The notes under the pieces: model-generated
Seen by the model: only the letters and a program-made list of their open reading frames with translations
Databases searched by the model: none
Told to the model about the DNA's origin: nothing
Program-made: the position numbers and the translations under genes
In this document: piece after piece, positions 3-29,587 of the stretch
Position numbering within the stretch: the stretch's first letter is position 1
Layout: each line of letters opens with the position of its first letter
DNA from: a virus
Lineage: Duplodnaviria; Caudoviricetes
IMG/VR virus record: IMGVR_UViG_3300022183_000025
Location: 1-34,766 of that record
Strand: one strand, 5' to 3'
Length of the DNA stretch: 34,766 nt

Positions 3-419
3 CAAGTTAATTCTAACTATGGAGCTCAATGGGAAAGACGTGGTCAATTAGACAAAGTTATAAAAATGCTAAGACGTAACCCAGACACTAGGCAAGCTAC
101 GATATCTATATATGATGGCAAAGAAATCGATCAATATAAATATGATACCCCTTGTACTTATGCAATACAGTTCACTGTTGTAAACGATAAACTGAATATG
201 TGTGTGACGATGCGATCTAACGATCTCTGGTACGGTTTCTGCAATGATCAGTATTGTTTTGCAAGACTGCAACAGATGGTATCAGAGGAGACAGATTATG
301 AACTAGGATATTATTATCATTTTGCACACAACTTACATTTGTATGAAAAAGATTTAGGAAAGTTTTTACCGCAAAAGCCTGATAATCTGCTACAAAGAAA
401 ACATGATATATATGGATAA
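3..419 (+). CDS. Thymidylate synthase-fold enzyme, 5'-truncated; probably dCMP hydroxymethylase/methylase type
   Basis: The frame is open from base 3 (QVNSNYGAQW...QLDKVIKML), so the ATG at 66 is internal. TS-family motifs: DTRQA, catalytic PC (Cys codon 153-155), MRSNDLWYGFCND (210-248) and HNLHLYE. Asp occupies the ThyA Asn177 position. Confidence 0.85.
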   Translation, partial: QVNSNYGAQWERRGQLDKVIKMLRRNPDTRQATISIYDGKEIDQYKYDTPCTYAIQFTVVNDKLNMCVTMRSNDLWYGFCNDQYCFARLQQMVSEETDYELGYYYHFAHNLHLYEKDLGKFLPQKPDNLLQRKHDIYG

Positions 420-1236
420 AGAAATAACATATTATTTATACCACATCCCGGGTAAAAAGATTGGTGTAACACGTAATATTAATAAGAGAGTTACACAACA
501 ACAGGGATATACCCTAGACGAAATAGAAGTTCTAGATCAAAGCACAGATATCGATTATATATCAAGCCGCGAGTTAGAACTTCAAAAGTCTTACGGCTAT
601 AGAGTCGACCTTAAACCTTATAAACAATTATTTAAAATGAAAGTAAACGCAACCGAACAAACCTCAACATTTCCTGTACCATTAGACAAACTTAAAGGTA
701 GACTTATGGATTCACTAGGATTAACATGGGAAACAATCCATGGCAAGTTTGAAGTAACTAAAGAAACAGTAGAATGGATAATGAAAAACGCATCTACGTC
801 TATGTTTAATAAAAATAGATCTTATATATATAATAAAGCTTTTTACGAAGCTTTCTTAAACGAAACTAAAAGCGAAATTCAATCTTTTTATGATCAACTA
901 AAAGATAGACCATCCAAACAAAACGGTCACGCTTGGGTTGAGTCTGATAGGTTTCAATTAATAAGAGATTGGGCTGGATCAAGAGGCTTATATAGTAAAG
1001 GTGATACTAAAACTCAATTCTGTAAGTTAATGGAAGAAGCAGGTGAGCTTGGTAGAGCTATACTAAAAGATGATGAAGCTGAATTTGTAGATGCTGTAGG
1101 TGATATGGTTGTGGTGTTAACAAACCTAGCTCATTTAAGAGGAGTATCTATTGAACACTGTATTGATTCAGCATATAAAGTTATATCAAACAGAAAAGGT
1201 AAAATGGTTAATGGTACATTTGTAAAAGATGAGTGA
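403..1236 (+). CDS. Fusion of a GIY-YIG-like N-terminal domain, an unknown middle domain and a C-terminal MazG-like NTP pyrophosphohydrolase
   Basis: The C-terminus has MazG motifs KLMEEAGEL...DAVGD...LTNLA...AYKVISNRKGKMVNGTFVK. The N-terminus YYLYHIPGKKIGVT...R...E resembles GIY-YIG. The start could be 403 or 412, and there is an internal ATG at 637. Confidence 0.8.
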   Translation: MIYMDKEITYYLYHIPGKKIGVTRNINKRVTQQQGYTLDEIEVLDQSTDIDYISSRELELQKSYGYRVDLKPYKQLFKMKVNATEQTSTFPVPLDKLKGRLMDSLGLTWETIHGKFEVTKETVEWIMKNASTSMFNKNRSYIYNKAFYEAFLNETKSEIQSFYDQLKDRPSKQNGHAWVESDRFQLIRDWAGSRGLYSKGDTKTQFCKLMEEAGELGRAILKDDEAEFVDAVGDMVVVLTNLAHLRGVSIEHCIDSAYKVISNRKGKMVNGTFVKDE

Positions 1237-1333
1237 TTATCAACAAACAATGACAGCTATAATAGCCATACAAATCGTAGGCTTTTTAATAATATTTATA
1301 TGGACAAAAACAGATGACAGAAAAAACAATTAA
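1229..1333 (+). CDS. Small single-pass membrane peptide (34 aa), absent from the ORF track
   Basis: Hand translation: MSDYQQTMTAIIAIQIVGFLIIFIWTKTDDRKNN*. The ATG overlaps the upstream stop (ATGAGTGA), the ORF fills the gap and it has one hydrophobic helix. Confidence 0.6.
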   Translation: MSDYQQTMTAIIAIQIVGFLIIFIWTKTDDRKNN

Positions 1334-1601
1334 ATTCAGAGACCCAGTAGTTGAAACAGTAGTAGATAAATTTGTAGGTAGATCAGACGTAGGCTTTAAA
1401 AAATACGGCCAAACGTTAGATAAAGAACGCAAAACAGGCGTTAAAGACTTAGCAGGTTATTTAAACGATGTACAAGAAGAACTAATGGATGCAATATTAT
1501 ATATTCAAGCAGCTAAAGATGAGCTAACGGAAGCTAAAGACAGAGTTTATGGCAAAAGTATTAACGGTTTACCATATTATGTCTCGGATATTGCGTCGTA
1601 A
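1314..1601 (+). CDS. Small all-alpha NTP-pyrophosphatase (MazG/dimeric dUTPase-like) protein
   Basis: Pattern RSDVGFKKYGQTL...YLNDVQEELMDAILY includes an EExxD acidic motif. It lies within the nucleotide-metabolism cluster. Confidence 0.55.
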   Translation: MTEKTIKFRDPVVETVVDKFVGRSDVGFKKYGQTLDKERKTGVKDLAGYLNDVQEELMDAILYIQAAKDELTEAKDRVYGKSINGLPYYVSDIAS

Positions 1602-2031
1602 AAAGCGCGGTCCGGTTAGAGCTAAAAAGAAAGTTGTAGATGGTATAGAATTTAAGTCAGGACTTGAAGCATATATGTATAAAGCTTTGAAAGAAGCAGG
1701 TATACAGGCAGAGTACGAAGGGGTAAAGTATGAACTTACCCCTTCATTTGACTTTAACAACGAATGTTATGAGCGACAAGGAAATGGAAAGGGCGAGTAT
1801 AAGAATCGCGGAGGCAAAAAAATACTTAAGATCTCTTATACACCTGATTTTACAGGAACAGGATTTATCATTGAGTGTAAGGGAAGAGCAAACGAATCTT
1901 TTCCTATACGTTGGAAACTATTTAAGAAATATGTCAGCGAACGACTTAATAGCGTTACTCTATATAAACCACAAAATCAAAAAGAATGCGACGAAACCGT
2001 GAGCCTAATACTTGGGAAAAAAAAGAATTAG
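1579..2031 (+). CDS. T7 endonuclease I-like Holliday junction resolvase (PD-(D/E)xK)
   Basis: Motifs FKSGLE, YTPDF, IIECKG and RWK. The ATG at 1579 is favoured over 1549 because it gives a shorter overlap with the upstream gene. Confidence 0.8.
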   Translation: MSRILRRKKRGPVRAKKKVVDGIEFKSGLEAYMYKALKEAGIQAEYEGVKYELTPSFDFNNECYERQGNGKGEYKNRGGKKILKISYTPDFTGTGFIIECKGRANESFPIRWKLFKKYVSERLNSVTLYKPQNQKECDETVSLILGKKKN

Positions 2032-2177
2032 CTAGAAAAAAATATGCAGAAAGACAATTAGAAAAATTTATTAAATGGAGTATAGATAACAAAGGTTATC
2101 TAAAATACAAAGAACTTATAGAATATGAAAGAAAGTACTCTGCTAGAAATGCAGAAAAAAATAACGGCATTAACTAA
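1986..2177 (+). CDS. Hypothetical basic protein
   Basis: 63-aa ORF that fills the gap between the resolvase and the next gene; start uncertain. Confidence 0.4.
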   Translation: MRRNREPNTWEKKELARKKYAERQLEKFIKWSIDNKGYLKYKELIEYERKYSARNAEKNNGIN

Positions 2178-2364
2178 TGTTGTGCAACACCTAATGCAGG
2201 AGATTAATTATTTAAGAGATCTTAGTGTAGGAACATTAGAAACAGTTAAGCTTATGCCTGACTATGAAAACGCAATCAACGCTTTAAAAGCTAAGATGGA
2301 GGAAGAAGTTAAACAAAAACAAAAGGAGAAAAAAGATGGAGCTATCGAACAAGATACTAAGTGA
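2125..2364 (+). CDS. Hypothetical coiled-coil protein
   Basis: 79-aa ORF with a heptad-like pattern, overlapping the RNR start in the same operon. Confidence 0.6.
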   Translation: MKESTLLEMQKKITALTNVVQHLMQEINYLRDLSVGTLETVKLMPDYENAINALKAKMEEEVKQKQKEKKDGAIEQDTK

Positions 2365-4198
2365 TGTAACAGTTTATATGAAATATGCAAAATACATCCC
2401 TGAATTAAGCCGTAGGGAGACATGGGACGAGTTAGTAACACGTAACATGAATATGCATATTAAAAAATATCCTGAGCTCACAGACGACATTAAAACAACA
2501 TATAAATTAGTCTATGAAAAAAAGATTTTACCAAGTATGCGATCACTTCAGTTCGGAGGTAAGCCGATTGAAATATCACCTAATCGTGTTTATAATTGCG
2601 CTTATTTACCTATCGATCATATTGAATCGTTTAATGAGGTTATGTTTTTATTACTTGGTGGAACCGGAGTTGGATACTCTGTTCAAGATCACCATGTTAA
2701 AAAGCTAGAACCAGTAAATAAACCTTATAGTAAAAGAACTAGAAGATTTTTAATAGGTGACTCAATTGAAGGTTGGGCAGATGCTATTAAAGTATTAATG
2801 AAATCATATCTTGGTGAAAAAAGAAGTTCACGTGTAGAGTTTGACTACTCTGATATACGCCCTAAGGGTGCAATGTTAGTAACGTCTGGTGGTAAAGCAC
2901 CTGGACCTCAACCGCTTAAAGAATGTATAGTAAAAATAACAGGAGTTTTAGACTCAAAGGAGGATGGCGATATGCTCTCCACTATAGAAGTACACGATAT
3001 AGTTTGCCATATTGCAGACGCCGTCTTAGCTGGTGGAATACGTCGAGCAGCTTTGATAAGTCTGTTCTCAGCGGACGACGAGGAGATGATCTCTTGCAAG
3101 TCTGGAAATTGGTGGGAAACAAATCCACAAAGAGGAAGAGCGAATAACTCTGCTGTTCTTATGAGACATAAAATAACTAAAGAGTTTTTTATGGACTTAT
3201 GGAAACGTGTAGAATTATCAGGTGCAGGTGAACCTGGAATATATTTTAATAATGATAAAGACTGGGGTACAAACCCTTGTTGTGAAATAGCTTTACGACC
3301 ATATCAGTTTTGTAACCTATGTGAAGTAAATGCTAGTGATATTGAATCACAAGAAGATTTAAATAACAGAGTGAAAGCAGCTGCGTTCATAGGAACTTTA
3401 CAAGCTGGATATACGGACTTTCACTATTTAAGAGACGTATGGAAAGAAACAACAGAAAAAGACGCGTTGATAGGAGTATCGATGACGGGGATAGGATCTG
3501 GCACGGTGTTAGGATACGACATGAAGAAAGCCGCTCAATTAGTAAAACGAGAAAACGCAAGAGTCGCGAAAGTGATTGGAATTAATTCTGCAGCTAGATG
3601 CACAACCGTAAAGCCTGCTGGGACGACTTCTCTGGCGTTAGGAACTTCATCTGGTATTCATGCATGGCATAATGATTATTATATCCGTAGAGTTAGAGTT
3701 GGTAAGAACGAAAGTATATACAAATACTTAGCTACAAACCATCCTGCTTTAATTGAAGATGAGTATTTTAGACCTCACGATACCGCTGTTATTAGTATAC
3801 CACAAAAAGCACCTGAAGGTTCTATACTTAGAACTGAATCACCATTTCAATTGCTTGAAAGAATAAAACAAGTAGCAACTGAATGGGTTGCGCCTGGTCA
3901 TAGAAAAGGTAGCAACACTCATAATGTTTCAGCTACGGTTAGTTTAAAAACTGAAGAATGGGAAACAGCTGGAGAGTGGATGTGGGATAACAGGAAACAC
4001 TATAATGGTTTATCTGTATTACCTTACGACGGTGGAACTTATACACAAGCTCCATTTGAAGATATAACCGAAGGTGAATATATTAACATGTTACAACACT
4101 TAACTGATATAAACTTAGAAAATGTTATCGAGACTGAAGACAACACTGATCTTAGTGGTGAGCTTGCTTGTGCTGGTGGTGCTTGTGAAATTACTTAA
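2336..4198 (+). CDS. nrdJ: Class II (adenosylcobalamin-dependent, RTPR-type) ribonucleotide reductase
   Basis: Motifs LPSMRSLQFGG, YNCAY, GGIRRAA, GEPG, catalytic TNPCCEI (~3270-3290), TTVKPAGT and C-terminal CAGGAC. No beta-subunit gene is adjacent. Confidence 0.93.
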   Translation: MELSNKILSDVTVYMKYAKYIPELSRRETWDELVTRNMNMHIKKYPELTDDIKTTYKLVYEKKILPSMRSLQFGGKPIEISPNRVYNCAYLPIDHIESFNEVMFLLLGGTGVGYSVQDHHVKKLEPVNKPYSKRTRRFLIGDSIEGWADAIKVLMKSYLGEKRSSRVEFDYSDIRPKGAMLVTSGGKAPGPQPLKECIVKITGVLDSKEDGDMLSTIEVHDIVCHIADAVLAGGIRRAALISLFSADDEEMISCKSGNWWETNPQRGRANNSAVLMRHKITKEFFMDLWKRVELSGAGEPGIYFNNDKDWGTNPCCEIALRPYQFCNLCEVNASDIESQEDLNNRVKAAAFIGTLQAGYTDFHYLRDVWKETTEKDALIGVSMTGIGSGTVLGYDMKKAAQLVKRENARVAKVIGINSAARCTTVKPAGTTSLALGTSSGIHAWHNDYYIRRVRVGKNESIYKYLATNHPALIEDEYFRPHDTAVISIPQKAPEGSILRTESPFQLLERIKQVATEWVAPGHRKGSNTHNVSATVSLKTEEWETAGEWMWDNRKHYNGLSVLPYDGGTYTQAPFEDITEGEYINMLQHLTDINLENVIETEDNTDLSGELACAGGACEIT

Positions 4199-4201
4199 CT
4201 A

Positions 4202-4777
4202 ATGGAAGAAGCAAAAGAATATTATAATGAAGTATACAGATCTGGCGGAGCTGGGTCTGTATATCTACTTCCAGCAGAAGAAGTTAAATTTTACTATCCT
4301 AATTGGAAAATAGCATATGATTATATAGTAAGAAATAAAGTCAACAGCATAGTAGATTTAGGCTGTGGACCTGGTCATTTTTCAAGTTTGTTTAGTGAAT
4401 CTAGCACAACAATCAATGCTTATGATTTTTCTGATGAAGCTATTTCACAGGCTAAAAAGCGTAATAAAACTAATAAAAATACTACTTTCCATGTTGAAGA
4501 TTTAAAAAACACTAACTTAAAAGATAAAGGTACTTTTTTTACTGCTTTTGAATTTTTAGAACATATTGAGTGGGACTTAGATATAATAAGCAAAATTAGT
4601 AGTGGATCTACAATAATATTTAGTGTACCAAGTTATGATGCTAAAGGTCATGTAAGATTTTTTAACAATGAAAAAGAAGTAGAAAATAGATATGGTAAAT
4701 TACTAAATTTAGATTTACTTAATATACATAAGTTTGGTAAACAAAAAATATTTTTATATAAAGGAGAAAGAATATGA
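4202..4777 (+). CDS. Class I SAM-dependent methyltransferase, small-molecule/glycan type
   Basis: Motif I IVDLGCGPG, then AYDFS, FEFLEHI and IFSVP. No DPPY/NPPY or C5-MTase PC motif. Confidence 0.88.
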   Translation: MEEAKEYYNEVYRSGGAGSVYLLPAEEVKFYYPNWKIAYDYIVRNKVNSIVDLGCGPGHFSSLFSESSTTINAYDFSDEAISQAKKRNKTNKNTTFHVEDLKNTNLKDKGTFFTAFEFLEHIEWDLDIISKISSGSTIIFSVPSYDAKGHVRFFNNEKEVENRYGKLLNLDLLNIHKFGKQKIFLYKGERI

Positions 4778-5508
4778 GAACTTTATGCATACTTACTATT
4801 TACAACGAAATTAAATTCCTTCCTTATAAGCTACAGTACTGTAAAGACAACGATTTAGATCTGTATGTAATAGATAACATGTCTAATGACGGTAGTTGGG
4901 AATGGTTACAAGATAATAATATTAAGTCTCATAGATTTGACACTAATGGGATGTTTTATTTGAAAGCTCTTCAAAAGGAAATGGTAAAAACAGTTCATGA
5001 AGAAAAACCTGATTGGGCAATTTATAATGGGTGTGATTTATTTCCTTTGGTAAAAGGTAGTTTAGGTAAAAAACTAGAAGAAATAAATAAAGAAGGTTAC
5101 AACTTAGCTACTATAGATTATTTAATGTTTTGTAACACTGGTGAAGAACGTTCTAATCCTTTTACTACTTATTTTCATTTCCATGGTTTAAGAAGTTTAA
5201 TGATGATACACAAGTATGATCCTAAATTCGACTACTATGGAGACGCAGTTAAAATTAGTGCGCAAAATAAAATATATAATCTCGAAGGTGTAATGCCTAA
5301 CTATGGATGTACTAAAACAAAAGAAGAAAGAGATGAAACATATGCTAGAAGAAAAAAAGCTTGGGATGCTGGTGTAACTCTGAAAGGTCATGGTATACAC
5401 TACAAAGGTGGAAAAGAAATAAATTGGCTATGGGAAAAGGATAAACTAACAGATGTTAGAAATACTAAATATTATGAGTTTATAAAGAACGCTAGTTTCT
5501 ACAAATAA
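4774..5508 (+). CDS. GT-A fold (GT2-like) glycosyltransferase
   Basis: N-terminal IYNE...YVIDNMSNDGSWEWL, and PDWAIYNGCDLF at the (degenerate) DxD position. ATGA overlap with the methyltransferase stop. Confidence 0.75.
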   Translation: MRTLCILTIYNEIKFLPYKLQYCKDNDLDLYVIDNMSNDGSWEWLQDNNIKSHRFDTNGMFYLKALQKEMVKTVHEEKPDWAIYNGCDLFPLVKGSLGKKLEEINKEGYNLATIDYLMFCNTGEERSNPFTTYFHFHGLRSLMMIHKYDPKFDYYGDAVKISAQNKIYNLEGVMPNYGCTKTKEERDETYARRKKAWDAGVTLKGHGIHYKGGKEINWLWEKDKLTDVRNTKYYEFIKNASFYK

Positions 5509-5509
5509 T

Positions 5510-5538
5510 AAAAGGGAGGTCTTACGGCCTCCCTTTTT
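5510..5538. terminator. Bidirectional intrinsic terminator between the convergent arms
   Basis: AAAA-GGGAGGTC-TTAC-GGCCTCCC-TTTTT: a GC-rich stem with an A-tract on the left and a T-tract on the right, just after the stop at 5508. Confidence 0.88.
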
Positions 5539-5570
5539 GGTTACAGGAACTTTGGGTATGGTGCCCAGTA

Positions 5571-6221
5571 TTAAGTGTTCCTTAAAGAATTATAAAAATC
5601 TTTATCTAAACAATGTTTATTAAACCATTCAAAGCTTCCTTGTTTTGTCATCTGAGGATGCTTTGTATTATGTCCACTACCACCGCTTAAACCTATGCCA
5701 TGTTTAATACCTATAGCTAGCACTTCATTTGTAGGAAAGTATAATCCACCTTTTGTTTGATTATTTTTTGATCTAAATATATGTAGGTCAAACCAAGGGT
5801 CATTATCTTTAGGATAAGTAATGTTATAGGGTAATTTTAATAAAGAGCAAAAAGCTGAAGCTCTACCTGGATGCCTCATGTGAAAATTACTTTTAGTGAA
5901 TATATTATAATAATACGTTTCATAGGCTCCAAATACATCTGGCTTTAAGTCTTCTTGCCAAGCTTTAGTTATCCACTCTATATATTTAGGATGATACCAA
6001 TCATCATCTTCCCATAGCAAAGCATACTCATGACCGTTTTCTGTAGCTTTTTCTATTCCATATTTGTATCTCTGTGTTAAATCCTTGTCTTTAGATTTAG
6101 GTTCATAGTCTACTACTATTACTTCATCAGGTTGTTTTGTTTGAGATTTAATTATATTCCAATATTGATCTTTAAAAACAGGTCTATCTCCTCTTGTAGG
6201 CGTTATTAAGCAAAAGCTCAC
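5571..6221 (-). CDS. GT-A fold (GT2-like) glycosyltransferase
   Basis: Motifs ITPTRGDR, QTKQPDEVIVVD and LLWEDDDWY (DxD). It is the last gene of the - operon. Confidence 0.8.
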   Translation of the reverse strand: MSFCLITPTRGDRPVFKDQYWNIIKSQTKQPDEVIVVDYEPKSKDKDLTQRYKYGIEKATENGHEYALLWEDDDWYHPKYIEWITKAWQEDLKPDVFGAYETYYYNIFTKSNFHMRHPGRASAFCSLLKLPYNITYPKDNDPWFDLHIFRSKNNQTKGGLYFPTNEVLAIGIKHGIGLSGGSGHNTKHPQMTKQGSFEWFNKHCLDKDFYNSLRNT

Positions 6222-6496
6222 TTTTTCTTTTTATGTTTATTACAAAAACTCCTAGCAGCTTCCTTGCTACCAAATCCCCATTTTTTAAGAGCCATTTTTA
6301 AATTACTAGGTTCTCCATTAGGTTTTTTCATACCACCTTTCATACCTCCAAATCTACAGGCAAATTTAATTCTAGCAGGAGCAGTCCCGCTAGTATGTCT
6401 CTTACTTAGTGTTTTACCTGTTTCTTTTTTGTGTTTAGCTCGCATTTTTCTATTACGAGCTTCATACCTTGCGTCTACACTTTTTTTCTTAGCCAT
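6218..6496 (-). CDS. Small, highly basic phage protein
   Basis: 92 aa, K/R-rich, with motif FACRFGGMKGGMKKPNGEP...ALKKWG. Start and stop overlap the neighbours on both sides. Confidence 0.75.
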   Translation of the reverse strand: MAKKKSVDARYEARNRKMRAKHKKETGKTLSKRHTSGTAPARIKFACRFGGMKGGMKKPNGEPSNLKMALKKWGFGSKEAARSFCNKHKKKK

Positions 6497-6906: not shown

Positions 6907-9900
6907 CTAATCTTGTAATACGTTTCCAAACTTATCTGTTTTTTGTTTTTTGTACCCGCCTTTTTCAATAGGGTTTCCAAATTTATCTACTTTTTCTTCT
7001 TTTGTTTCAACTACAACATTTCCAAACTTATCTTTTTTTACTTTTTCTTTTTTTATTTTATCTGGTTTTAACTCCCATTCACTCCATCCGAGTGCTAAAG
7101 CTATACGCATCCACGTAGCAGTTTCCTCCGCGAACGCGCCTTTTAAATTTTGCATTTTAATCATTAACCTATCTAAAGGTACATTAGTAACCGCTGATAT
7201 TACCTTAGCTGTAGCTTCGTAAGCTGGGTTATCTAATGAAAAACCTTTATCAATCATTTCTTGTCTACGTTTTTTAGAATCAACGTACCATAATGCTGAT
7301 TTTATTCTTTTTACTTTAGAATCTACTACTGGTGATAAAGCAATTAACTTCCACGCTGCATCTACGTATTCAGGTCTAGACCTTTTACTTCTTTCATATA
7401 CATCAATAAGTGTGTTTTTAAGGACTGATACGATGTGTCCAGGAATACCTAGTCCTCTAAGTTGAGAATCCATTATACCGTTTGCAACTCTAAATGTTTT
7501 TTCGTCTTTAAATTTTTCAATGTCATCTTCCTCGTCATAGTCTCCAAAGCCTAGAGCAAACATTCCTGCGTGCGCTGCCTGAAACCACAGGTTTTGTACT
7601 AACCCATAGTATATTATTTTAGAAACATTATCAGCATCATTACCTCTTCTATTAGATATGTCTTGAATAGCTTTCTTTTGTATCCTTACATATTGCATTT
7701 GAGTGTTCGCCCAGTTTAAAAATATTCTACCTAAATCACTAGCTTGCTGAGATGATGTTTTATCAGGTCTACTAGATTGTTGTGACTTTTCAGATATAGT
7801 TACAAAATCTTCATAAGCTTTTGCTTTAGCTTCTTTCTCGTCAAAGCCTTGGTCAATTAATTCATTAAGCCTATTTCTATAAAAAGTAGCACCACCTGAA
7901 GCAATAGCAAAACTATCCATAAATTTAGTGGGTGAATAACCTTTTTCAATAAGATAAGAAACAGCTGCTTTAAATTTGTTCTTAGCGGTTTTAGCAGCAT
8001 TAGATATTTCACTACCCTGTAAGTCTATAGATAAACCGTTTCTCCTGTCTACCAGGTAATCAGAGTTTATCAACTCCATAAAATCACTCCAATATTGAGG
8101 TTGATTAGCAAATGCCTTACCAGCTTTTAATATGTTATTGTTACTCCAATTTAAAAAGTTAGCTGCTGATATACTTTGTAGTAAAGCAGATCTCATATTA
8201 AAGAACATTACAACCCCTTGTGCATTGTTCAAGTAATCTAATACTCTTCCAGCAATTCTATTTTGACCAGACAGTCTATTGTTTCCAGATTTCATCCTAG
8301 CGAGCATGTTTTCTAGTGCTTCTCTATATCTAGGACCTAACGCTGCTTCTAGTTTATTTAAATTCTTCTCACTAAATATTACATCTACATTCTGTTGCCA
8401 TTGCTCTAAATACTTTTTTCTATTTACAGTATTTAAACCTTCAAGTATATCGCTAGAAATACCTCCACCTAACCAGCTTTTATCAGGCTTCATGTACTCT
8501 CCTTTGTTTACAGCTATTACTTGTTCTGCAAAAGTTCTAAGCTCAAAGTTATCTAGTACGTAGTCATTCACTTCTTTTAAATCAGACTTAGATAAACCAG
8601 GTACGTCATAACCAAGTGAATTCCATATAAAAATTCTAGCAGAGTTTTCGTTTGAAAAACCTGTGTCGTTTATTTTTCTAAGATTTTTAGGTACAGCATT
8701 AAGATCTTTTCGTAATTTTCTAAAATCGTCCATTACATTTGTTCTAGCTGTCTGCATGTTCATTTCAGCTCTAACATAAGGCATTATTAAATGCTCATTA
8801 AACCATTCCATAGCTTGATCACCTGCTTTCCCTTTGCCTAATAATGGATACAGTAGACCTTCAAAGTCTTCAGCGGAGTAAGGATGAATCATACGATTAT
8901 CTTTACCTTTACCTATCATAGCCGCTTTAGCAGCTGAAAACTCTTTATAACTTTTTATACCAGTCGCGCTTTCTATTATATCATTAAACTGGGTATCTAC
9001 TTCTTCACTAAATTTAAACTTAGCTTGTTGTACTTTTGACTTAACGTCTATTTGACCTAATGCTTCTTTTACTGCTTTAACGTTTTGAATAGCATCATCT
9101 GCAAAGTAGAAATCATTAAATCCATTTGCCGCTTTTTCTACTATCCATCTTGACTTAGCATACGGCGAACCATCACCTAGCCCAGTTATATTTTTTAAAG
9201 GTATATTTATTCCTACACCTTTCAAGAATTCATGTATATTTTGAGCGGACTCAGAACTTCTAGCTGTTAATACAAACACGTTGTCAGATCCTCTTTTATT
9301 TATTATAGTTCTAGCTAAATCAGCTAGTGGACCTTCACCACCTTCTCTTACAGTATTAAAATCTGTAAAATCCATTTTAGCTCCGTCGCTTACAAGATCT
9401 GACCCTTTTTCAGCAAATTCTTCAGCGTTTAATTGACCCTTAGTACCATCAGGCATAGTGTAATTAACTAAATTTTTACTAGTAGCTAGCGTGTCGTCAA
9501 AATCAAATACTCTTATTTTTTTAACAGGCGCATTTAAATCTCTAGCATTAGCTAGTGATTCATCTACTGTAGCAGCAAAACCTAAAACTTCGTTAGCGTC
9601 CATGCTGCTTTCTTTAAAACCTGTTACTTCGTTGTTTAACGTATTAACGTTTACTTCTCTAGCTTTTTGATAGTCTTCATACAACTTAGCAGCTATTTTT
9701 GACTCTTCTACTATTTCACCAGTTTCAATATCTAATAATTCATGAGCAGCTCCTCCTTTAGTATACTCATTTATCCATCTACTAATTGGAGAGTCACCTA
9801 TCTTATAATCACTAGGCATGCTTTGCTGAAAGAAAGTACCAAAGTTATCATTAAACGAAGTGTGTATTACCCCTACAGTATAGTTTTCTTGTAATTTTTT

Positions 9901-12900
9901 AAGATCTACTTTTGACTTATCATTTAACACTGCATCAGCAATAGCTAAATTAACAACTAACGCAGGTATACCATGCTCATATTCAAATTGTTTTTTGCCA
10001 TCAATATTTAACTGTGTAGTAGGTGGGTTAACTGGTAAGTATTTTAATCTAGCTGCAGCACGTATTGGTCCTTTCATGTTTTCACCCATGCCTTTAGCTA
10101 GCAAAGCAATATTATCGTTTGTTGCTAAGTTTTCATCAAGTAATTGCTTAGCAGCTTTATAATTATTAACTACAAAATCAAAAGCTCTTTCTGAATCTTC
10201 TTTTCTGTCAGCCATTTCTTTTTCAGAAATGTTATTGTTTATCATGTCTTTGCTAACAGCTTGGGTTTGTAATCTTAATGATTCGACTACTTTAACTTCA
10301 CCACTTTTTAACTTAAACTCAACTGTACCATCTTTCTTTTTAGTCTGATAACTTTCTAGGTTAGGTATAAATCCCTCTAAAAAACCATCAACAAATTCAT
10401 TTTTATTACCGTATAGCATGGCTCTTTCTCCAGATTTATATCCATCTTCCATCATGCCTTTGTATTGAACGTATGTAGCAGCTAGTTCAAATGGATCTGG
10501 ATATATTAAATTACCTTTTGCATCTTTAAGTTTCAACATTTGTTGAGCATTTAGATTCATAAAGCTTCTTTGATTCTGTATGTCTGGCCCATACTGATCT
10601 AAGTTTTTTCTTAATAAACCGGCTAATGAACCTGTATTAAAAAAGTCTGCATAAGATTTGTTTGTGTTGCTATCTATAATGTCATCTACAAGTTTTTGTA
10701 CATTTAAGTTTACACCTGGATTTTTCTTTAATTGTCTAGAAAAAGGAGCTAATAATGTATTGAATTTATTAACTACTTTAGTAATCTGAGCTTTTGTCAT
10801 TGTACCTTCAGGGAAACTTAATTCTACAATAGATCTAATCTGAGGCCTTCTAATTTTAACTTCATTGCTAAACCCATTATTTTCCACAACTGATCTTAGA
10901 TTGTTTATAAACGCATCCTTATTAGCTATAAACTTATTATAAACGTCTTCTCCTAAACTGTTTTGTAAATCTTCAGAAAACTTAAAACCAGTGCCTCTAC
11001 CTACAGCTGTAGCGTATTGAGTTAACATCTCAGAACCTAACTGCTTTTTCATATCAGGATTATTAGCAGTTGCTTCTTTAACAAACTTTTCATTTGTTAA
11101 TACTTCCATCGTGGCGTCTAAACCAAATTGTTTAGACAATATCTTAGCAAGCGCATTATTTCTACCTCTTACTTTAAAAAACTTATTAAAAGTTTCTGAA
11201 CTAGGGTTAAGCCTTTCGTATAGTTTAGGACCTTGTGTAGTTGTAGCTGTTTTTAAATTACCTGAACCTTCATATACTTTAACTTCAGTGGGGTTTAATA
11301 CCGTTCTACCAGTTGCTTTATCCATAACAACTTCTTTAGCAAGAATTTTCTCTTTAGATAACCTTTCAAGTGCCACTAAGTCTTCTATCGGAAGTTTACT
11401 TAACAAATACGGTCTAGCTTGTTTTAAAAACGAATCATATACTTTTGATTTTACAAATTCTTTTTTTACTAGTTTATCAAACTTACCTGCAAATTTAGAT
11501 TCTAATTCTGATGTAAAGTTTTTGTATATACCTGCTAGATCACGCTCAGCTTGACGTTTAGTTTCTCCAGTAGGATTTTTATCCATAACTTTTTTAACTT
11601 CATCTAGCGTAACCATAGGACCTGGTCCTTCTTTTGTTCTACGTTGATATTCTAAAGTAGGTAAACCTTCTGACAACATCTCAGACGTTCCCTCCATAAT
11701 AGCATTGTAAAATTCACCACCAGTTTCTATACCTAAATCTTCTCTTAATGTTTTATCTAGTGTTTGGTCTAAAGATTCTTTAGCGGCAATGTTAACAGCT
11801 GAACTTAAATCTTGTTTAAAACCTAATTGGTCCCCGTATTTTTTCGTAATTAAATTATGAGCACGCTTTACTTTATTAGGCAGTATTGAAGGGCTCATTA
11901 AATAAGCATCAAAATCATTGTTTTTTGTAGGATCAAAGTTTTTAATAGATTTTGTTAATTCAATATTGGCCAGTGAAACTAATTCTTCTTTAGCTTCTTG
12001 TAGAGTAAGGCTTTCATAAGGATCTGTATTAAAGTAATTAGCTTTACCAGCTATTTCAATAATGTTGGTTTCATATCCTTTTAGTATTTCATTTAACACA
12101 GCTCCTTGCCTAGCTGTACCTAATTCACCTCTGAACAAAAGTTCTGTTTTGTTAACTCGCTCTTTACGATCACTATTTGATTCACCTTTTTTAAACTTAG
12201 GTAACACCTGTTTTAAATCTTGAAATTTCTTAGTTAAAGAAGCCGCTTTTTCTTTCCACCCTGTAGGCTTTTCTTTTGCTAATTTTTTTATAGCATCTAA
12301 TACATCAGCAGCATTTGTAAGCTCTGTTGTTCCTGATAATTTTAAACCAGCATCTTTAAATAAGTCATCAACTACTTTTTTACCTAATGCTTTATCTAAG
12401 TCTTTTTTAATCTTTTTAATTTCCTTTTGAGATTCTTGAAATTTAGTTTTAGCATCTTTTATTACTTTAGACTTTTTAAATTCAGTTATACTACTTGAAG
12501 TTATTCTACCTTCAGACACTGCTTTACCTAAATCGTATAAATATTTTATAGCTCCATTTTGACCTGCTAAATCTAGTTCAGATTTTTTATTACTTTTGAA
12601 TATACCGTTAGTTAAAAAACCAAAAGATGAAGACATTAAACCACCTTGGTTATTGTCTAGGTCTATTTTACCTTTACCAACTAATTCTAGAAAGTTCATT
12701 ACCACTTCATCAGAAGCTTTAAGAGCACCACCTCTTCTCACCTGCATATATTCTAACAGCTTAGGATCATTAGATTTTAAGTAGTTAACTATTTCCTCAG
12801 CTAGTGGATCAAAAGCTTTTGAGTCTGTACCTAGTAATTCGTTAAATATACCATGACTAGCTTCATGTGTTGCAACCTTAACATCTCCATTTAATATAGC

Positions 12901-15900
12901 GTTTTCTCTAAATATTAAACTTTCTGATCTTGCTACTTTACTAGGGTCAAACGTTATTACTCCATCACTATCAAATGTTATATTAACACCATTAGCTTTA
13001 CCTTCAGCTACTTTATTATTAATACCATTTCTAGCGTCTCTAAATTTACTTTCTAGATTTTGTATTTTTGTTTTCTTTTCGTCTTCAGATAAATCACTAT
13101 CACGTATATTATCTTTACTTGTAGCATATATATCTTCTAAATATGTAATAGCTTCAGAGTTAGTATCAAATTTAAAATACTTTCTCTTATTCTTAGCGTT
13201 GTCTTTAGATATATTATTGAAGTCTTCATCTATTAATTCACCAGTGTACATGCGTTCAGCGAGTTTAGAAACCTGATCGTCTCTAACTTCTCCTTTGCCT
13301 TCTTTTTCTAACACTTGCTTTGCTTCAGAAGTTATTCTATCATATCTGGATTTGTCACTAGTTTCAAGTAATGTAAATCTATTTGCAAAATTCTCATTAT
13401 TCTTCCACGAATCTTTTTTAAATTGAAGTTGGTCGAATTGTCCTTTTAAAGTTTCTAAAAACTCTACATCAGGGTTTTTGTAATCTAAAATTTCATTAGC
13501 TACTTTACTTATTTTACCTTGCTGAAGCACTGCATCGTAAAAATTATTAAAAGCACTTTCTTCTGTAGTGTTTCTAATAGCACCAAATTTATTTTGTATA
13601 AAAGTGTCTTGTTCAATTTGTAAATTATCTATAGACTCTTGTTGTAACTCTTGATTCTCTTTAGATATTTTATTATTCTTAACTAAATCATCTAGAGCAC
13701 GTTGTTGATTAATTATATTAGTTTCCTTAACTCTAAAGTCTTCAAAAGTATTATAATCCGTAAACTGTCTTGCTGCTAATCCAGCCATAAAAGGAGTTAT
13801 TGACATTGCATGACCAAACATTCCCCCAACAAAAGCAGCATGATCAGCGTTTTCTAGTACAGGTTTGCCGTCAATAAAATTCTGTGTTAGTGTTGTACCA
13901 AACTCAGCACCAGCTTCTAGTATAGGATCTGTTGCTAAGTGTAAAGAATTTTGCTTTATATATTGCTTCATAGCATTTTTATATGAAAGCATACTTTCTT
14001 TACCCATGTTTTTAATAAGATTCTGTCCTCTTTTTAATATAGGAATTGTAGTAAATCTTTCAAATATAGCTTCAGAAGCACCGTAACCTATAGATTGAAC
14101 AGCTTGTAAAAATTCATTTTTAACTTTACCTGTTATAAATTCTTCTCTATCACCATCTGCCCAATGTTGACCAGCTGAATAAGCTCCAATAGCCCAAGCT
14201 CCTTGACCACCAGTTGCCATTAACGTAGCTAATATAGGTATTTGTTTACCTACTTCATTAGCAACAAAAGAACCAAAATTTGAAGCGTTAGAAAAAGCTC
14301 CACCTTGTCCGTATTTATTTTTACGAAAGCTTACGGCTTCACCATACTTGCTCTGCACTCCTTCTTTCCATGAAGAGTAATCATCATATTTATCAGCAAA
14401 GAAATTATCATATCTTGCCCATGCTTGACCTATTACATCCAGTTCTTCCATCCCAGCTAACTGTAAACCTTCACTAGCTAAAACAGCTCCTAAACCAGGT
14501 CCATACTTTCCAATTTTACTAGCTAAGTAACCTACTCCAGCTACTATATCAGTAAAACCTGTACCTAAATAACTCATCGACTGATTCCAAGTATCATATT
14601 GTTTACCAAGTAAATGTAAAGCAGCATCATTGTCTCCTACTTCATCTTCTAAATCCCAAACCTTTTGCCTAGTATTAAACATGGCGTTCATTTTGTTTTG
14701 TTGAGTCTGTCTTGCTGCTATATATTCATCAAGCGTTTTCTGATTTACTGGTTTACCATTTCTTAAAGTAACTATTTCACTTTCATCGTTTATGATAAAA
14801 TCTTTATCAGGGTCATTATATATAGATTCAAATGAGTTTACTGCTTGTAGCTCAGGTGCTGCAAGATATTCTTTTAGTTTTACCTCGTTGTTTGCCATTA
14901 AACCCATAGCTTCGTCTAAGTTTTTGTCACGTGACACAACGTTATAATACGATGCTAATTGCTGCGTGTAGTTATCATTGTCAGCACTTCTTAAGTAATT
15001 TTTTAAGTTGCCTTGTTCAATATTATCAAACTCGCTATTGTAAAATTTTTCTGCTATAGATTGTTTTATTAATTCAGCGGGTACAGGTAGCTGTTTACCA
15101 GACGCATCTACATACTGCTTTTTTAATTGCTCTTCCGTGCTTCGCCACATTTCACTTCCAGGCCCTACGTTTTCTTTTCCACCTTTCATGTAAGGATTTT
15201 GAGAACCAAAACCGTTATTTAAATTTCTTAAGGCATCTGACAAAGTTGTTACACCACGCATAAGACCAGTTCCTTGTATCCGCGCACTTGATTGACCGCT
15301 AGCAACTAGATTTTTAAGTTCTTTAAACTCCTCACTAACTACAAAAGGTAATGGTGTGTCTTTTCCTCCATAAGAAAATGTTTGACCTCTGTTAGGATCT
15401 TCAGGAATTAATTCACCTTTTTTTACAAACTTCATAGCACCATCAACCATTATGTTTTGATCGTATGGACTTCTAATCATTTTGACTTCACCAGACTCAG
15501 GTATTACAAAGTTTTTAGACCAAGCTTTTAATTCTGCCTCTGCTTCTTTAGTATACGGATTATCTATAGTTGATTGACTAATCCCTTCAGGCAGTGCATT
15601 ACCTTCTGATGTTGTTTTAATATAATCAGCTATCATAGCTGAGTTAGTTCTAAACAAATTAGGATTGTAACTAAACTTGCCATTTACATCGTAATTACCT
15701 ATATTGCTCAACAAATCTTGCTGTTCAGGATTTGGTGCTATACCGCCTTTTGAAGGGGCACTATTATCATAAGGTCTATTCAGTAAATACGTTTGTTTGT
15801 TTAGTATATTAGATTTCTTAGTATTTAATTTTTCTAAATCTATACCACCATTTTCATTTACAAATTTAGCTATTTTATATTTTTGTTGAGCTAGTAATCT

Positions 15901-28045: not shown

Positions 28046-29587
28046 TTAAGTAGTAAACAACATAAAGTTGTTAGCCGCTTGAGTAACTAAACATCTTTCA
28101 GATAGGAAGTGAACTTCCATAGCATCTAAAGAAGATGTGTAAGCTCCACCAACTGAACCAGTAACCCATGACTTCATTCTACGATCATCAGCTTCAGAAG
28201 CTCTATATCTTACGTGTAAGAAAGGTCTTCTAATGTTTGATCCTAGCATTTGGTCATAAACTGTAGATGTTCCAGCAGGTACTAATACACCTTCGATATC
28301 TGGTGCTAAACCTCTAGTTGAAGCATCATTTAGATATTTCCAGTCAGTCTTATAGAAATCATAAGAACCTCTTCTAAATCCATCAAAACCGAAGTTCAAT
28401 GCCATTTCAGAATCGTTCTCAAATAAACCATAAGAAGCACCGCCTGAAAAACCTGCGTTTACTTCTGCTATCATGTTATCAATAGATAAAGCTAAAGATC
28501 TATTACAGAAAATCATATTTTCTTCAATAGCACCTTCAAAATCTAATTGAGCCAAGATAGTATCGAAGTCAGCCAAAGCGCCCGATCCATCACCTGTTCC
28601 TGCAAAATTTTGGTACTCATGACCTCTATCTTTAATAGCAGCGAATAAACCTTCTGTACCTTTGTCATCTGTAAAGTTACTATTTAAACCTAAACCTTTA
28701 GCAGCAGATCCAGTAGCAGCAAGCTCACCTTCAACAATTGCCATTTCTAAGTAATCTTCAAATCTTAGTCTTGTTTCAGATTCAGACTTTAAATACCATA
28801 GATATCCAGAAGTACCATCTTCAGTAGCAACTTCAACCCAACCAATTTGAGCAGCATCAGATCCATTGATCTCAAACTTATCTCTAATAATAATTGGAGA
28901 GTTAGAGTACTGTGTAAAATCTGGCTCGATAGAAGCTAATCCATCAGTGTCAGATCCTTTTTGCCAAGCAGCACCGTAAACAAATACAGCAACGGCTGAT
29001 CCAGTACCACCTGAAGAAGCGCCTTCTCCTTGGAATACACCAGATGGATTAGGATCACCAGTTAATAAACCTGAAGCAGTATAAGGAGCCACAGAAATTT
29101 CACAAGTTCTAGGAACACCAGAACCACCACCTGCATAAGCACCTGGAGCTGCGGTAACAATTACCTTCATTGATTCACCAACACCAGCACCAGTTGTACC
29201 GTTTCCGTAAACAACTAATGTTTGATTAATTTTAATCGCACATTGTTTGTTACCTACAATACCACCATTAGCTGTAACGTCTGGATCAATAGTAATTCTA
29301 ATTGTAGTACTATCAACAACTTCTGCAGTGTCATAAGAAACGTGTAATCTATTTTGTTCTGACCAAACAACCTGATCTGAAGTCATTGGCATTTCTGCGC
29401 CTACCATTCTCAAGAAACCAGAAATAGTTCTGTTTCCGTATCTTTCTACCTCTTGCTCATAGAGCTCAGGTAGATATTGTTGAGCAAAATCGTTATCACC
29501 TTCCGTGAAAGAAAGATAATTACTCGATAATGCCATTCGCTTTTGAGCGGGCTCTAAGTTAGGAGCCAATCCTGGAATTAATCCCAT
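28046..29587 (-). CDS. Major capsid protein
   Basis: Motifs QQYLPELYEQEVERYGNR, WSEQNRLH, IIRDKFEINGSD, GTEGLF and FRRGSYDFYKTDWKYLND. It follows the portal and scaffold genes and is followed by a strong terminator. Confidence 0.85.
   Translation of the reverse strand: MGLIPGLAPNLEPAQKRMALSSNYLSFTEGDNDFAQQYLPELYEQEVERYGNRTISGFLRMVGAEMPMTSDQVVWSEQNRLHVSYDTAEVVDSTTIRITIDPDVTANGGIVGNKQCAIKINQTLVVYGNGTTGAGVGESMKVIVTAAPGAYAGGGSGVPRTCEISVAPYTASGLLTGDPNPSGVFQGEGASSGGTGSAVAVFVYGAAWQKGSDTDGLASIEPDFTQYSNSPIIIRDKFEINGSDAAQIGWVEVATEDGTSGYLWYLKSESETRLRFEDYLEMAIVEGELAATGSAAKGLGLNSNFTDDKGTEGLFAAIKDRGHEYQNFAGTGDGSGALADFDTILAQLDFEGAIEENMIFCNRSLALSIDNMIAEVNAGFSGGASYGLFENDSEMALNFGFDGFRRGSYDFYKTDWKYLNDASTRGLAPDIEGVLVPAGTSTVYDQMLGSNIRRPFLHVRYRASEADDRRMKSWVTGSVGGAYTSSLDAMEVHFLSERCLVTQAANNFMLFTT

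What the first reader, a model, noticed from the sequence alone, without database searches (positions are those of the whole stretch)
3..6221. Candidate cytosine hypermodification pathway: dCMP modifier, two NTP-PPases, two GT-A glycosyltransferases and a methyltransferase
Seen: within 6.2 kb are the dCMP-type TS homolog, a MazG domain, a second EExxD pyrophosphatase-like protein, an RNR, a non-DNA-type SAM methyltransferase coupled to a GT-A enzyme, and a second GT-A enzyme. Established: T-even phages combine dCMP hydroxymethylase, dCTPase and GT-B glucosyltransferases, and GT-A enzymes glycosylate hydroxymethylpyrimidines in base-J/TET-associated systems. Inference: the PPases remove dCTP, hmC is incorporated, one or two sugars are added and the sugar is O-methylated. 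That would be an anti-restriction base I do not know to be described in crAss-like/Flavobacteria podophages. The link between the GTs and the TS homolog rests only on proximity.
Basis: inference. Interest (0 to 1): 0.8.

Follow-up and report, generated by a model that had tools for sequence, protein, structure and literature searches.

The report
Phage hmC enzyme, unlinked glycosylation cassette
An uncultured aquatic phage carries an enzyme predicted to put hydroxymethyl-cytosine into its DNA, but the neighbouring sugar- and methyl-transferase genes are missing from most close relatives and sit among particle-building genes in other phages, so they likely decorate the phage particle rather than build a new DNA base.

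Summary
The genes are real, but they form two unlinked systems, not one pathway. (1) The 5'-truncated thymidylate-synthase (TS) homolog has T4 gp42's diagnostic residues (D143, C146, D169, D177). It is a core gene of a large Pachyviridae/Elemovirus-like clade and is predicted to make 5hm-dCMP. These genomes do not avoid C-containing restriction palindromes (0 of 11), unlike 4 of 5 TS-less relatives. (2) The methyltransferase and two GT-A genes are accessory: absent from 80 of 80 TS-selected loci and 8 TS-bearing whole records, including the one with 97% TS identity. Among viral loci, TS accompanies GT1 in 1 of 41 and GT2 in 4 of 78. GT1, GT2 and the methyltransferase do travel together, even fused, inside head-tail operons of TS-less siphoviruses. 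GT2 ends the late operon and tracks the capsid type, not the TS. Relatives fill the same slots with other GTs, sulfotransferases or a pyruvyltransferase. Best reading: plain hmC DNA plus a swappable virion-glycan cassette like that of mycobacteriophages; the target is unproven. The methylated sugar-hmC base is unlikely (about 5%). This scan already reported the TS-MazG cassette and similar GT/MT cassettes on other DNA.

The parts
3..419 (+). C-terminal half of a thymidylate-synthase-family enzyme, predicted dCMP hydroxymethylase (fragment residues D48, C51, D74, D82 = E. coli ThyA 143, 146, 169, 177)
   Evidence: PF00303; aligned to T4 gp42 1b49 through the 97%-identical full-length L001 protein; motif in 80 of 80 loci; residue rules from PMC13326640 sections 24 and 28
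403..1236 (+). T5orf172/GIY-YIG-like N-terminal domain fused to a MazG NTP-pyrophosphatase; substrate unknown, dCTP plausible
   Evidence: follows the TS in nearly all of the 80 loci; MazG homolog also in TS-less phi19:3
1314..1601 (+). 95-aa protein with an EExxD motif, possible second all-alpha pyrophosphatase; not TS-specific
   Evidence: only unknown-function PHROGs; no PDB match; homologs in TS-less elemoA and MW202828
1549..2031 (+). DUF1064 / endonuclease-I-like resolvase
2336..4198 (+). Class II (B12) ribonucleotide reductase; replaced by class I in some relatives
4202..4777 (+). Class I SAM methyltransferase, accessory, predicted glycan-tailoring (O-methyl) enzyme; 27% GC
   Evidence: Methyltransf_23/25; travels with GT1 in TS-less phages; GC
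4774..5508 (+). GT1, GT-A glycosyltransferase without DxD/DDD motif, accessory and laterally mobile
   Evidence: AF2 model and fold searches; alignment A1; Atlas cluster 95% viral; identity discordance
5510..5537 (.). Terminator-like hairpin between the two convergent operons; A-run before and T-run after suggest both directions (inferred)
   Evidence: listed on - strand; sequence
5571..6221 (-). GT2, GT-A (SpsA/TarS-like) glycosyltransferase, last gene of the late/virion operon, co-inherited with one capsid type
   Evidence: its start overlaps the stop of ORF 6218-6496
28046..29587 (-). Probable major capsid protein (inferred from position after portal and from conservation) with Gly/Ser/Thr-rich insertions found only in GT2-bearing genomes; candidate glycan acceptor
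   Evidence: phrog_13704 virion structural protein; alignment; identity table; no PDB match

Best explanation
The 6.2 kb joins two unlinked systems at the junction of two convergent operons: a core enzyme predicted to make 5-hydroxymethyl-dCMP, and an exchangeable methyltransferase/glycosyltransferase set that likely builds and methylates a glycan on virion proteins. System 1: the TS converts dCMP to 5hm-dCMP (inferred from residues). The MazG domain may lower dCTP (inferred). With no phage kinase or polymerase recognised, host enzymes would phosphorylate and incorporate it, giving partly or fully hmC-substituted DNA with no sugar from these GTs. System 2: GT2 is made from the late operon with the virion proteins. 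MT and GT1 were picked up laterally into a hot slot behind the RNR. Together they would add sugars from host NDP-sugars and O-methylate them (inferred), the capsid protein's Gly/Ser/Thr loops being one candidate acceptor. Shown: gene content, folds, residues, distribution. Inferred: all chemistry and the acceptor.
For: TS: D143/C146/D169/D177 as in T4 gp42; RSND...ND motif in 80 of 80 loci; DTPC in 83 of 84 ORFs; one TS per record in 9 of 10 records, the tenth not covering it. No C-palindrome under O/E 0.4 in 11 of 11 clade genomes, against 4 of 5 TS-less relatives; same with or without GTs. Independence: MT/GT1/GT2 in 0 of 80 TS loci, 52 of them with at least 6 kb downstream; slot behind RNR empty in 35 of 48 loci where visible; absent from 8 TS-bearing records, 6 of them at least 90% complete. 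L081 shares MT/GT1 at 86-88% DNA identity but TS/RNR at 76-77%; L001 shares TS 93% and RNR 91% and lacks them. Module: among 41 GT1 loci, GT2 in 13, MT in 8, TS in 1; GT1-GT2 fusions (L130, L132, L140, L148) and a GT2-MT fusion (L147). Virion link: 16 of 31 GT1 loci and 26 of 52 GT2 loci lie within 4 kb of a PHROG-annotated virion or packaging gene. GT2 is present in 3 of 3 records with capsid identity 81-82% and 0 of 8 at 55-60%, whatever the TS identity. Slot swaps: GT + GT-D + pyruvyltransferase (L158), two GT2 + sulfotransferase (L090), NDP-sugar transferase + sulfotransferase at the late-operon end (G013). Precedent: O-methyltransferase followed by three GTs that modify capsid and tail tube in cluster O mycobacteriophages (PMC11600133, passage; Corndog layout).
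Against: No activity or glycan was measured. MT-GT1 here lie in the replication operon, not the virion operon. About half of the GT loci are not near an annotated virion gene, and several sit in LPS/capsule-like sugar clusters of large phages (L082-L089). GT1 and GT2 are not orthologs of the Che8/Corndog GTs (best HH probability 43%). The SunS match of GT1 ties with a fucosyltransferase (Z 13.0 vs 12.9), so it does not show a protein acceptor. The three GT2-positive records were found through GT searches, and shared capsid type may be plain linkage. In the forward test only 1 of 3 high-identity records (69-82%) showed the slot, and it held a different GT, not GT2. L159 and L160 carry another Asp-type TS 8-9 kb from a GT2 homolog. 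phi19:3 lacks TS and yet shows no palindrome avoidance. The 80 TS loci are the best of 510 and missed two TS+GT2 genomes (G006, G011); loci include near-duplicates.
Confidence: 0.6

Rival explanations
1. TS as in the best reading, but MT/GT1/GT2 tailor a host surface polysaccharide or lipid-linked glycan during infection (receptor masking), not the virion.
For: Slot alternatives and neighbours are polysaccharide-type enzymes: pyruvyltransferase, sulfotransferase, GT-D, WbqC, RgpF, TylF, DegT, epimerases. GT2's best folds are TarS, SpsA, RmlT and heparosan synthase. MT-GT1 lie in the replication operon.
Against: Same families lie between capsid and neck/tail genes in many siphoviruses. GT2 is in the late operon and tracks capsid type. 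GT1's Atlas cluster is 95% viral, and only 5 full-length hits came from 185,579 species genomes, all MAG contigs.
Confidence: 0.2
2. One reading: GT1/GT2 glycosylate hmC in DNA and the methyltransferase O-methylates the sugar, as an accessory upgrade in a minority of the clade.
For: MT-GT1 are in the same predicted transcription unit as TS and RNR. ThyS-linked GT-A enzymes exist (10.1101/2023.12.21.572611, passages). All four genes co-occur in the window and in L081; two large phages have another Asp-type TS 8-9 kb from a GT2 homolog.
Against: Independent distribution. The trio occurs, even fused, in TS-less virion operons. No TAGT (PF20691) hit at E 0.05. GT1 has DDD in 0 of 54 sequences; GT2 has ED[YF] in 8 of 118. 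Palindrome usage is the same with and without GTs.
Confidence: 0.05
3. The TS does other chemistry: 5-methyl-dCMP, or it feeds thymidylate or hmU supply via deamination, and the DNA is not hmC-substituted.
For: It is the only TS in each record checked. No dNMP kinase or DNA polymerase was recognised among the representatives scanned, apart from one PolA in L024. A dCMP deaminase follows it in L022, L029, L033. Its top PDB hit by E-value is a canonical TS, about tied with gp42.
Against: An acidic residue at 143 correlates with hydroxymethylation and D177 with dCMP (PMC13326640). D169 is kept, so the 5-hydroxy-dCMP signature is absent. Restriction palindromes are not avoided.
Confidence: 0.15

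Closest known systems
T4 gp42 dCMP hydroxymethylase (PDB 1b49) and the T-even glucosyl-hmC pathway
   Same: Catalytic Cys and D143/D169/D177 pattern; E 1e-17 for the full-length relative; adjacent all-alpha pyrophosphatase and a GIY-YIG-like domain that may parallel gp56 and endonuclease II (T4 roles recalled)
   Different: No GT-B glucosyltransferase, dNMP kinase, second TS or phage polymerase recognised; about 60 kb podovirus-type genome
Bacteroides phage BF486P2 WAX06796, annotated dCMP hydroxymethyltransferase (closest cultured TS, 54%)
   Same: Same motifs around C146 and D177
   Different: That genome has a second Asp-type TS with a carbamoyltransferase and an AAA kinase-like gene; none here
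Mycobacteriophage virion glycosylation (Corndog gp35-38, Che8 gp108-110; Freeman et al. 2023, seen only through citing papers)
   Same: Methyltransferase plus tandem GT-A genes; homologous loci sit inside head-tail operons as Corndog's do
   Different: No orthology; genes split between two operons; tailoring enzymes swapped among relatives; target not shown
TET/JBP-associated DNA GT-A enzymes (TAGT, JGT; Pyle et al., 10.1101/2023.12.21.572611)
   Same: GT-A fold; GT2 has the R and DDD parts of the motif
   Different: Third motif missing, no PF20691 hit, no 5mYOX or C5 methyltransferase, no stable linkage to TS
Pachyviridae, Pervagoviridae and Elemovirus podoviruses of Flavobacteria (elemoA, Panino, phi19:3, Calle_1)
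   Same: Closest cultured portal (41-49%) and terminase (38-48%)
   Different: These have no TS (0 of 5 records) and mostly avoid C-containing palindromes

Membership tests
dCMP hydroxymethylase (T4 gp42 type) | TS fold with catalytic Cys146 | tested here: met
   PF00303; DTPC in 83 of 84 ORFs; alignment to 1b49
dCMP hydroxymethylase (T4 gp42 type) | Asp at ThyA 177 (dCMP preference) | tested here: met
   80 of 80 loci; rule from PMC13326640 section 24
dCMP hydroxymethylase (T4 gp42 type) | Acidic residue at ThyA 143 (hydroxymethyl rather than methyl) | tested here: met
   D143
dCMP hydroxymethylase (T4 gp42 type) | Forms 5hm-dCMP; hmC in DNA | not testable with these tools
   Only indirect: no palindrome avoidance
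5-hydroxy-dCMP synthase (RB69 gp48 type) | D169N | tested here: not met
   D169 kept in 80 of 80; signature from PMC13326640 section 28
T-even glucosyl-hmC system | GT-B alpha/beta glucosyltransferase | tested here: not met
   Both window GTs are GT-A; none recognised among the representatives scanned from relatives; about 24 kb of this genome lies outside the window
T-even glucosyl-hmC system | dCTPase | tested here: inconclusive
   MazG domain present, substrate unknown; homologs also in TS-less phages
T-even glucosyl-hmC system | Phage dNMP kinase and DNA polymerase | tested here: inconclusive
   No Pfam hit among cluster representatives from ten records; remote forms could be missed
DNA-acting GT-A (TAGT/JGT) | R...DDD...EDY/F motif | tested here: not met
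   GT1: DDD 0 of 54; GT2: DDD 117 of 118 but ED[YF] 8 of 118; motif
DNA-acting GT-A (TAGT/JGT) | PF20691 match | tested here: not met
   No hit at E 0.05 for either GT
DNA-acting GT-A (TAGT/JGT) | Conserved linkage to a base-modifying enzyme (5mYOX or TS) | tested here: not met
   TS in 1 of 41 GT1 and 4 of 78 GT2 loci; 5mYOX linkage was not profiled separately
DNA-acting GT-A (TAGT/JGT) | Structural closeness to JGT/TAGT models | tested here: inconclusive
   No such model named in the libraries searched; TarP, the PDB hit reported for those enzymes, is a generic hit here too
Phage virion-glycosylation cassette (Che8/Corndog type) | Methyltransferase plus GT-A genes inherited as a set | tested here: met
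   Adjacent or fused GT1, GT2, MT in TS-less phages
Phage virion-glycosylation cassette (Che8/Corndog type) | Position in or beside virion operons | tested here: inconclusive
   True for window GT2 and about half of homologous loci; not for window MT-GT1
Phage virion-glycosylation cassette (Che8/Corndog type) | Orthology to Che8 gp108-110 or Corndog gp35-38 | tested here: not met
Phage virion-glycosylation cassette (Che8/Corndog type) | Glycan on capsid or tail protein | not testable with these tools
   Needs virion glycoproteomics

The most novel reading that the evidence does not exclude
A minority of this phage clade recruited a mobile virion-type GT/methyltransferase pair into the replication operon and turned it onto its hmC DNA, giving an O-methylated glycosyl-hmC base and a living example of a glycan transferase switching from protein to DNA.
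Probability: 0.05. Interest if true: 0.8.

Novelty: new member of a known kind. Interest (0 to 1): 0.3.

Why it matters
It removes a tempting but unsupported hypermodification pathway and leaves two testable predictions. First, a common aquatic Flavobacteria phage clade (510 TS matches in IMG/VR) likely protects its DNA with plain hmC using a minimal gene set; this could bias restriction-based or sequencing surveys. Second, virion glycans with swappable methyl, sulfate or pyruvate tailoring may extend to aquatic podoviruses, with a candidate acceptor loop on the capsid protein. Both are known kinds of system, and neither is shown chemically here.

Tried and rejected
Linkage of GTs to TS: tested by tblastn and own HMMs on 80 TS loci, 41 GT1 loci, 78 GT2 loci and 11 records; rejected. 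5-hydroxy-dCMP synthase: rejected, D169 kept. GT1 as a SunS-like protein glycosyltransferase: top Foldseek hit but tied in VIA-align; not used as proof. Orthology to Che8/Corndog enzymes: none. No DNA-GT family was named among the fold-search hits, which does not exclude one. GT2 and MT have no match among GenBank phages, and GT1 one weak match (GX15bay, in a GT/MT cluster before the terminase). Forward test of the capsid-GT2 link on five capsid-selected records: 0 of 5 had GT2. G012 and G014 end before or at the slot, G013 holds a different GT plus sulfotransferase, and G015 and G016 have distant capsids and were not opened. Population variants lacking MT-GT1: no such joint among the 15 shown, 42 not shown. 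L241 equals the window's first 15.5 kb and comes from a 58.7-kb contig; its remainder could not be searched, so upstream kinase or NDP-sugar genes were judged from relatives only. The D169/D177 counting pattern was mis-written and is not used; one search gives that count. Literature searches with no hit. Freeman et al. 2023 is not held. bioRxiv supplements of Pyle et al. (GT-A lists, Table S4) were not seen and could bear on whether these GT families were among their hits.


Full report
Setting. The window is a fragment of an uncultured podovirus-type phage. It has portal, terminase and crAss-type muzzle domains. Its closest cultured relatives by portal and terminase are Flavobacterium elemo phages, Maribacter phage Panino and Cellulophaga phages of Pachyviridae and Pervagoviridae. 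Near-identical DNA occurs in marine and freshwater metagenome runs. The finding covers the end of the rightward replication operon (3-5508) and the last gene of the leftward late operon (GT2, 5571-6221). A terminator-like hairpin at 5510-5537 lies between them.

The TS. The contig starts inside the gene, leaving 138 aa. The full-length L001 protein (97% identical) aligns with T4 gp42 (1b49, E 1e-17) and about equally with canonical TS. I read sections 24, 28 and 29 and the opening of PMC13326640. They give the rules: N177D for dCMP, L143D/E for hydroxymethylation, D169N for 5-hydroxy-dCMP. This enzyme has D143, C146, D169 and D177. The D169/D177 motif is present in 80 of 80 loci and DTPC in 83 of 84 ORFs. 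It is therefore predicted to be a 5hm-dCMP synthase. It is the only TS in 9 of 10 records searched; the tenth does not cover that region. As indirect support, none of 12 C-containing 4-mer palindromes falls under O/E 0.4 in the window or 10 clade records. Four of five TS-less relatives avoid several strongly; phi19:3 does not. GT-bearing genomes (mean 0.93-0.99) and GT-less ones (0.85-0.97) look alike, so the apparent protection does not need these GTs. Hosts differ, so this is weak evidence.

The pyrophosphatases. ORF 403-1236 is a fusion of a T5orf172/GIY-YIG-like domain (weak, score 0.97, family on 11-15% of cluster members) and a MazG domain. It follows the TS in nearly all loci. dCTP removal is plausible by analogy with T4 (recalled) but untested. 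The 95-aa ORF has only a motif and unknown-function PHROGs. It also occurs in TS-less elemoA and MW202828, and a MazG homolog occurs in TS-less phi19:3. No DNA polymerase or dNMP kinase was recognised among cluster representatives from ten records; one TS locus, L024, has PolA.

Do the GTs and methyltransferase go with the TS? No. Of 510 TS matches in IMG/VR the best 80 were kept. None carries MT, GT1 or GT2 by tblastn or by profiles built from 54 and 118 homologs. Fifty-two of them extend at least 6 kb downstream, and in 35 of the 48 that show the junction the slot behind the RNR is empty. Eight TS-bearing whole records lack all three, including G001 with TS 97% and RNR 96%. Conversely, TS is found in 1 of 41 GT1 loci and 4 of 78 GT2 loci. 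Two of those four are this clade (L091, L158). The sample has limits: loci include near-duplicates, and the TS scan missed two TS+GT2 genomes (G006, G011). GT1 moves laterally: it is 87-93% identical in DNA across phages whose RNR is 77-89% identical, sometimes without MT (L235, L236, L239). The MT is 27% GC against 37% for the RNR.

What they do go with. Among the 41 GT1 loci, GT2 occurs in 13 and MT in 8. GT1 and GT2 are fused in L130, L132, L140 and L148, and GT2 with MT in L147. In a siphovirus group (L130, L131, L133, L135-L138, L143, L145-L148) the set lies between capsid/decoration genes and neck/major-tail genes, followed by a sulfotransferase. Counting the clustered loci, 16 of 31 GT1 loci and 26 of 52 GT2 loci are within 4 kb of a PHROG-annotated virion or packaging gene (L157 gave no strong hit and L210-L232 were not clustered). 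Others lie in LPS/capsule-like sugar clusters of large phages. In the window's clade the same two slots hold other glycan enzymes: GT + GT-D + pyruvyltransferase (L158), two GT2 + sulfotransferase (L090), NDP-sugar transferase + sulfotransferase (G013). G005 and G010 carry a different GT and methyltransferase far from the TS. GT2 tracks the virion module: present in 3 of 3 records whose probable capsid protein is 81-82% identical, absent in 8 of 8 at 55-60%, regardless of TS. Those capsid proteins carry Gly/Ser/Thr-rich insertions. The three positives were found by GT searches and linkage alone could explain the pattern; a forward test had one informative record, with a different GT in the slot.

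Structure and motifs. Both models are confident, single-domain GT-A folds. GT1 is nearest SunS/ThuS in Foldseek but tied with other GT2 enzymes in VIA-align (Z 13.0, rmsd 3.6, 196 aligned, against 12.9). GT2 is nearest TarS and SpsA (Z 14.1 and 14.0). Folds do not name the acceptor. DNA-acting GT-A enzymes carry R...DDD...EDY/F (Pyle et al. preprint; section 8 and passages read). GT1 lacks DDD (0 of 54), GT2 mostly lacks ED[YF] (8 of 118), and neither hits PF20691.

Comparison with known systems. The TS part works like T4 gp42 without the T-even glucosyltransferases. The GT/MT part is arranged like the mycobacteriophage virion-glycosylation genes. I know that work through PMC11600133, PMC12363180 and PMC12619734 (passages) and PMC11256854 (main text); the primary paper was not held. 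Corndog has the methyltransferase and three GT genes directly before the capsid protease gene. The window's enzymes are not orthologs, so this is 'works like', not membership. Six paper searches found nothing on hmC or GTs in this phage group or with the terms tried. Earlier notes of this scan describe the same TS-MazG cassette and similar virion GT/MT cassettes on other DNA; I had reached this reading before opening them.

Verdict. Observation partly confirmed; the proposed pathway is not supported. Best reading (0.6): predicted hmC DNA plus an unlinked, swappable glycan cassette that likely acts on the virion. Rivals: host-surface glycan tailoring (0.2), other TS chemistry (0.15), methylated glycosyl-hmC (0.05). 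New member of known kinds; interest 0.3.

Noticed in passing
L032, L044, L050, L053, L060, L075 (e.g. L053:662-3986), partial in L026: In siphovirus-like phages the same TS is preceded by three conserved co-oriented genes: about 305 aa (phrog_13881/17781, unknown), about 298 aa (no family) and a PLP-dependent enzyme (PF00291, below cut-off). This is a better candidate for true cytosine hypermodification than the window's GTs.
   Followed up: partly
L093 (Bacteroides phage BF486P2, OP172667): A cultured phage with two Asp177-type TS genes plus a carbamoyltransferase, an AAA kinase-like gene and dUTPase; the most accessible place to test this TS family.
   Followed up: partly
window 403-897: T5orf172/GIY-YIG-like domain fused to MazG right after the TS; could cut cytosine-containing host DNA as T4 endonuclease II does (role recalled, untested).
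   Followed up: partly
L022, L029, L033: A dCMP deaminase gene is inserted between the TS and a short MazG, which could route the product to hmU or dTMP.
   Followed up: no
G001-G005, G008-G010: Records carry primase-helicase, ligase, ERF, a sigma-like factor and GroEL/GroES, but no recognisable DNA polymerase or dNMP kinase; L024 alone has PolA.
   Followed up: partly
window 28046-29587 and G006, G007, G011: The probable capsid protein has Gly/Ser/Thr-rich insertions of about 25 aa in total only in GT2-bearing genomes.
   Followed up: partly
L023, L042 (e.g. L042:1880-2635): A 2OG-Fe(II) oxygenase gene lies between the TS and MazG in two loci.
   Followed up: no
window 6907-16929: A 3340-aa late protein, only about 40-55% identical among close relatives; not analysed.
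   Followed up: no
L282 (Caudovirales GX15bay, MK557849): Six GT genes and a methyltransferase just before the terminase, two of them GT1 homologs.
   Followed up: partly
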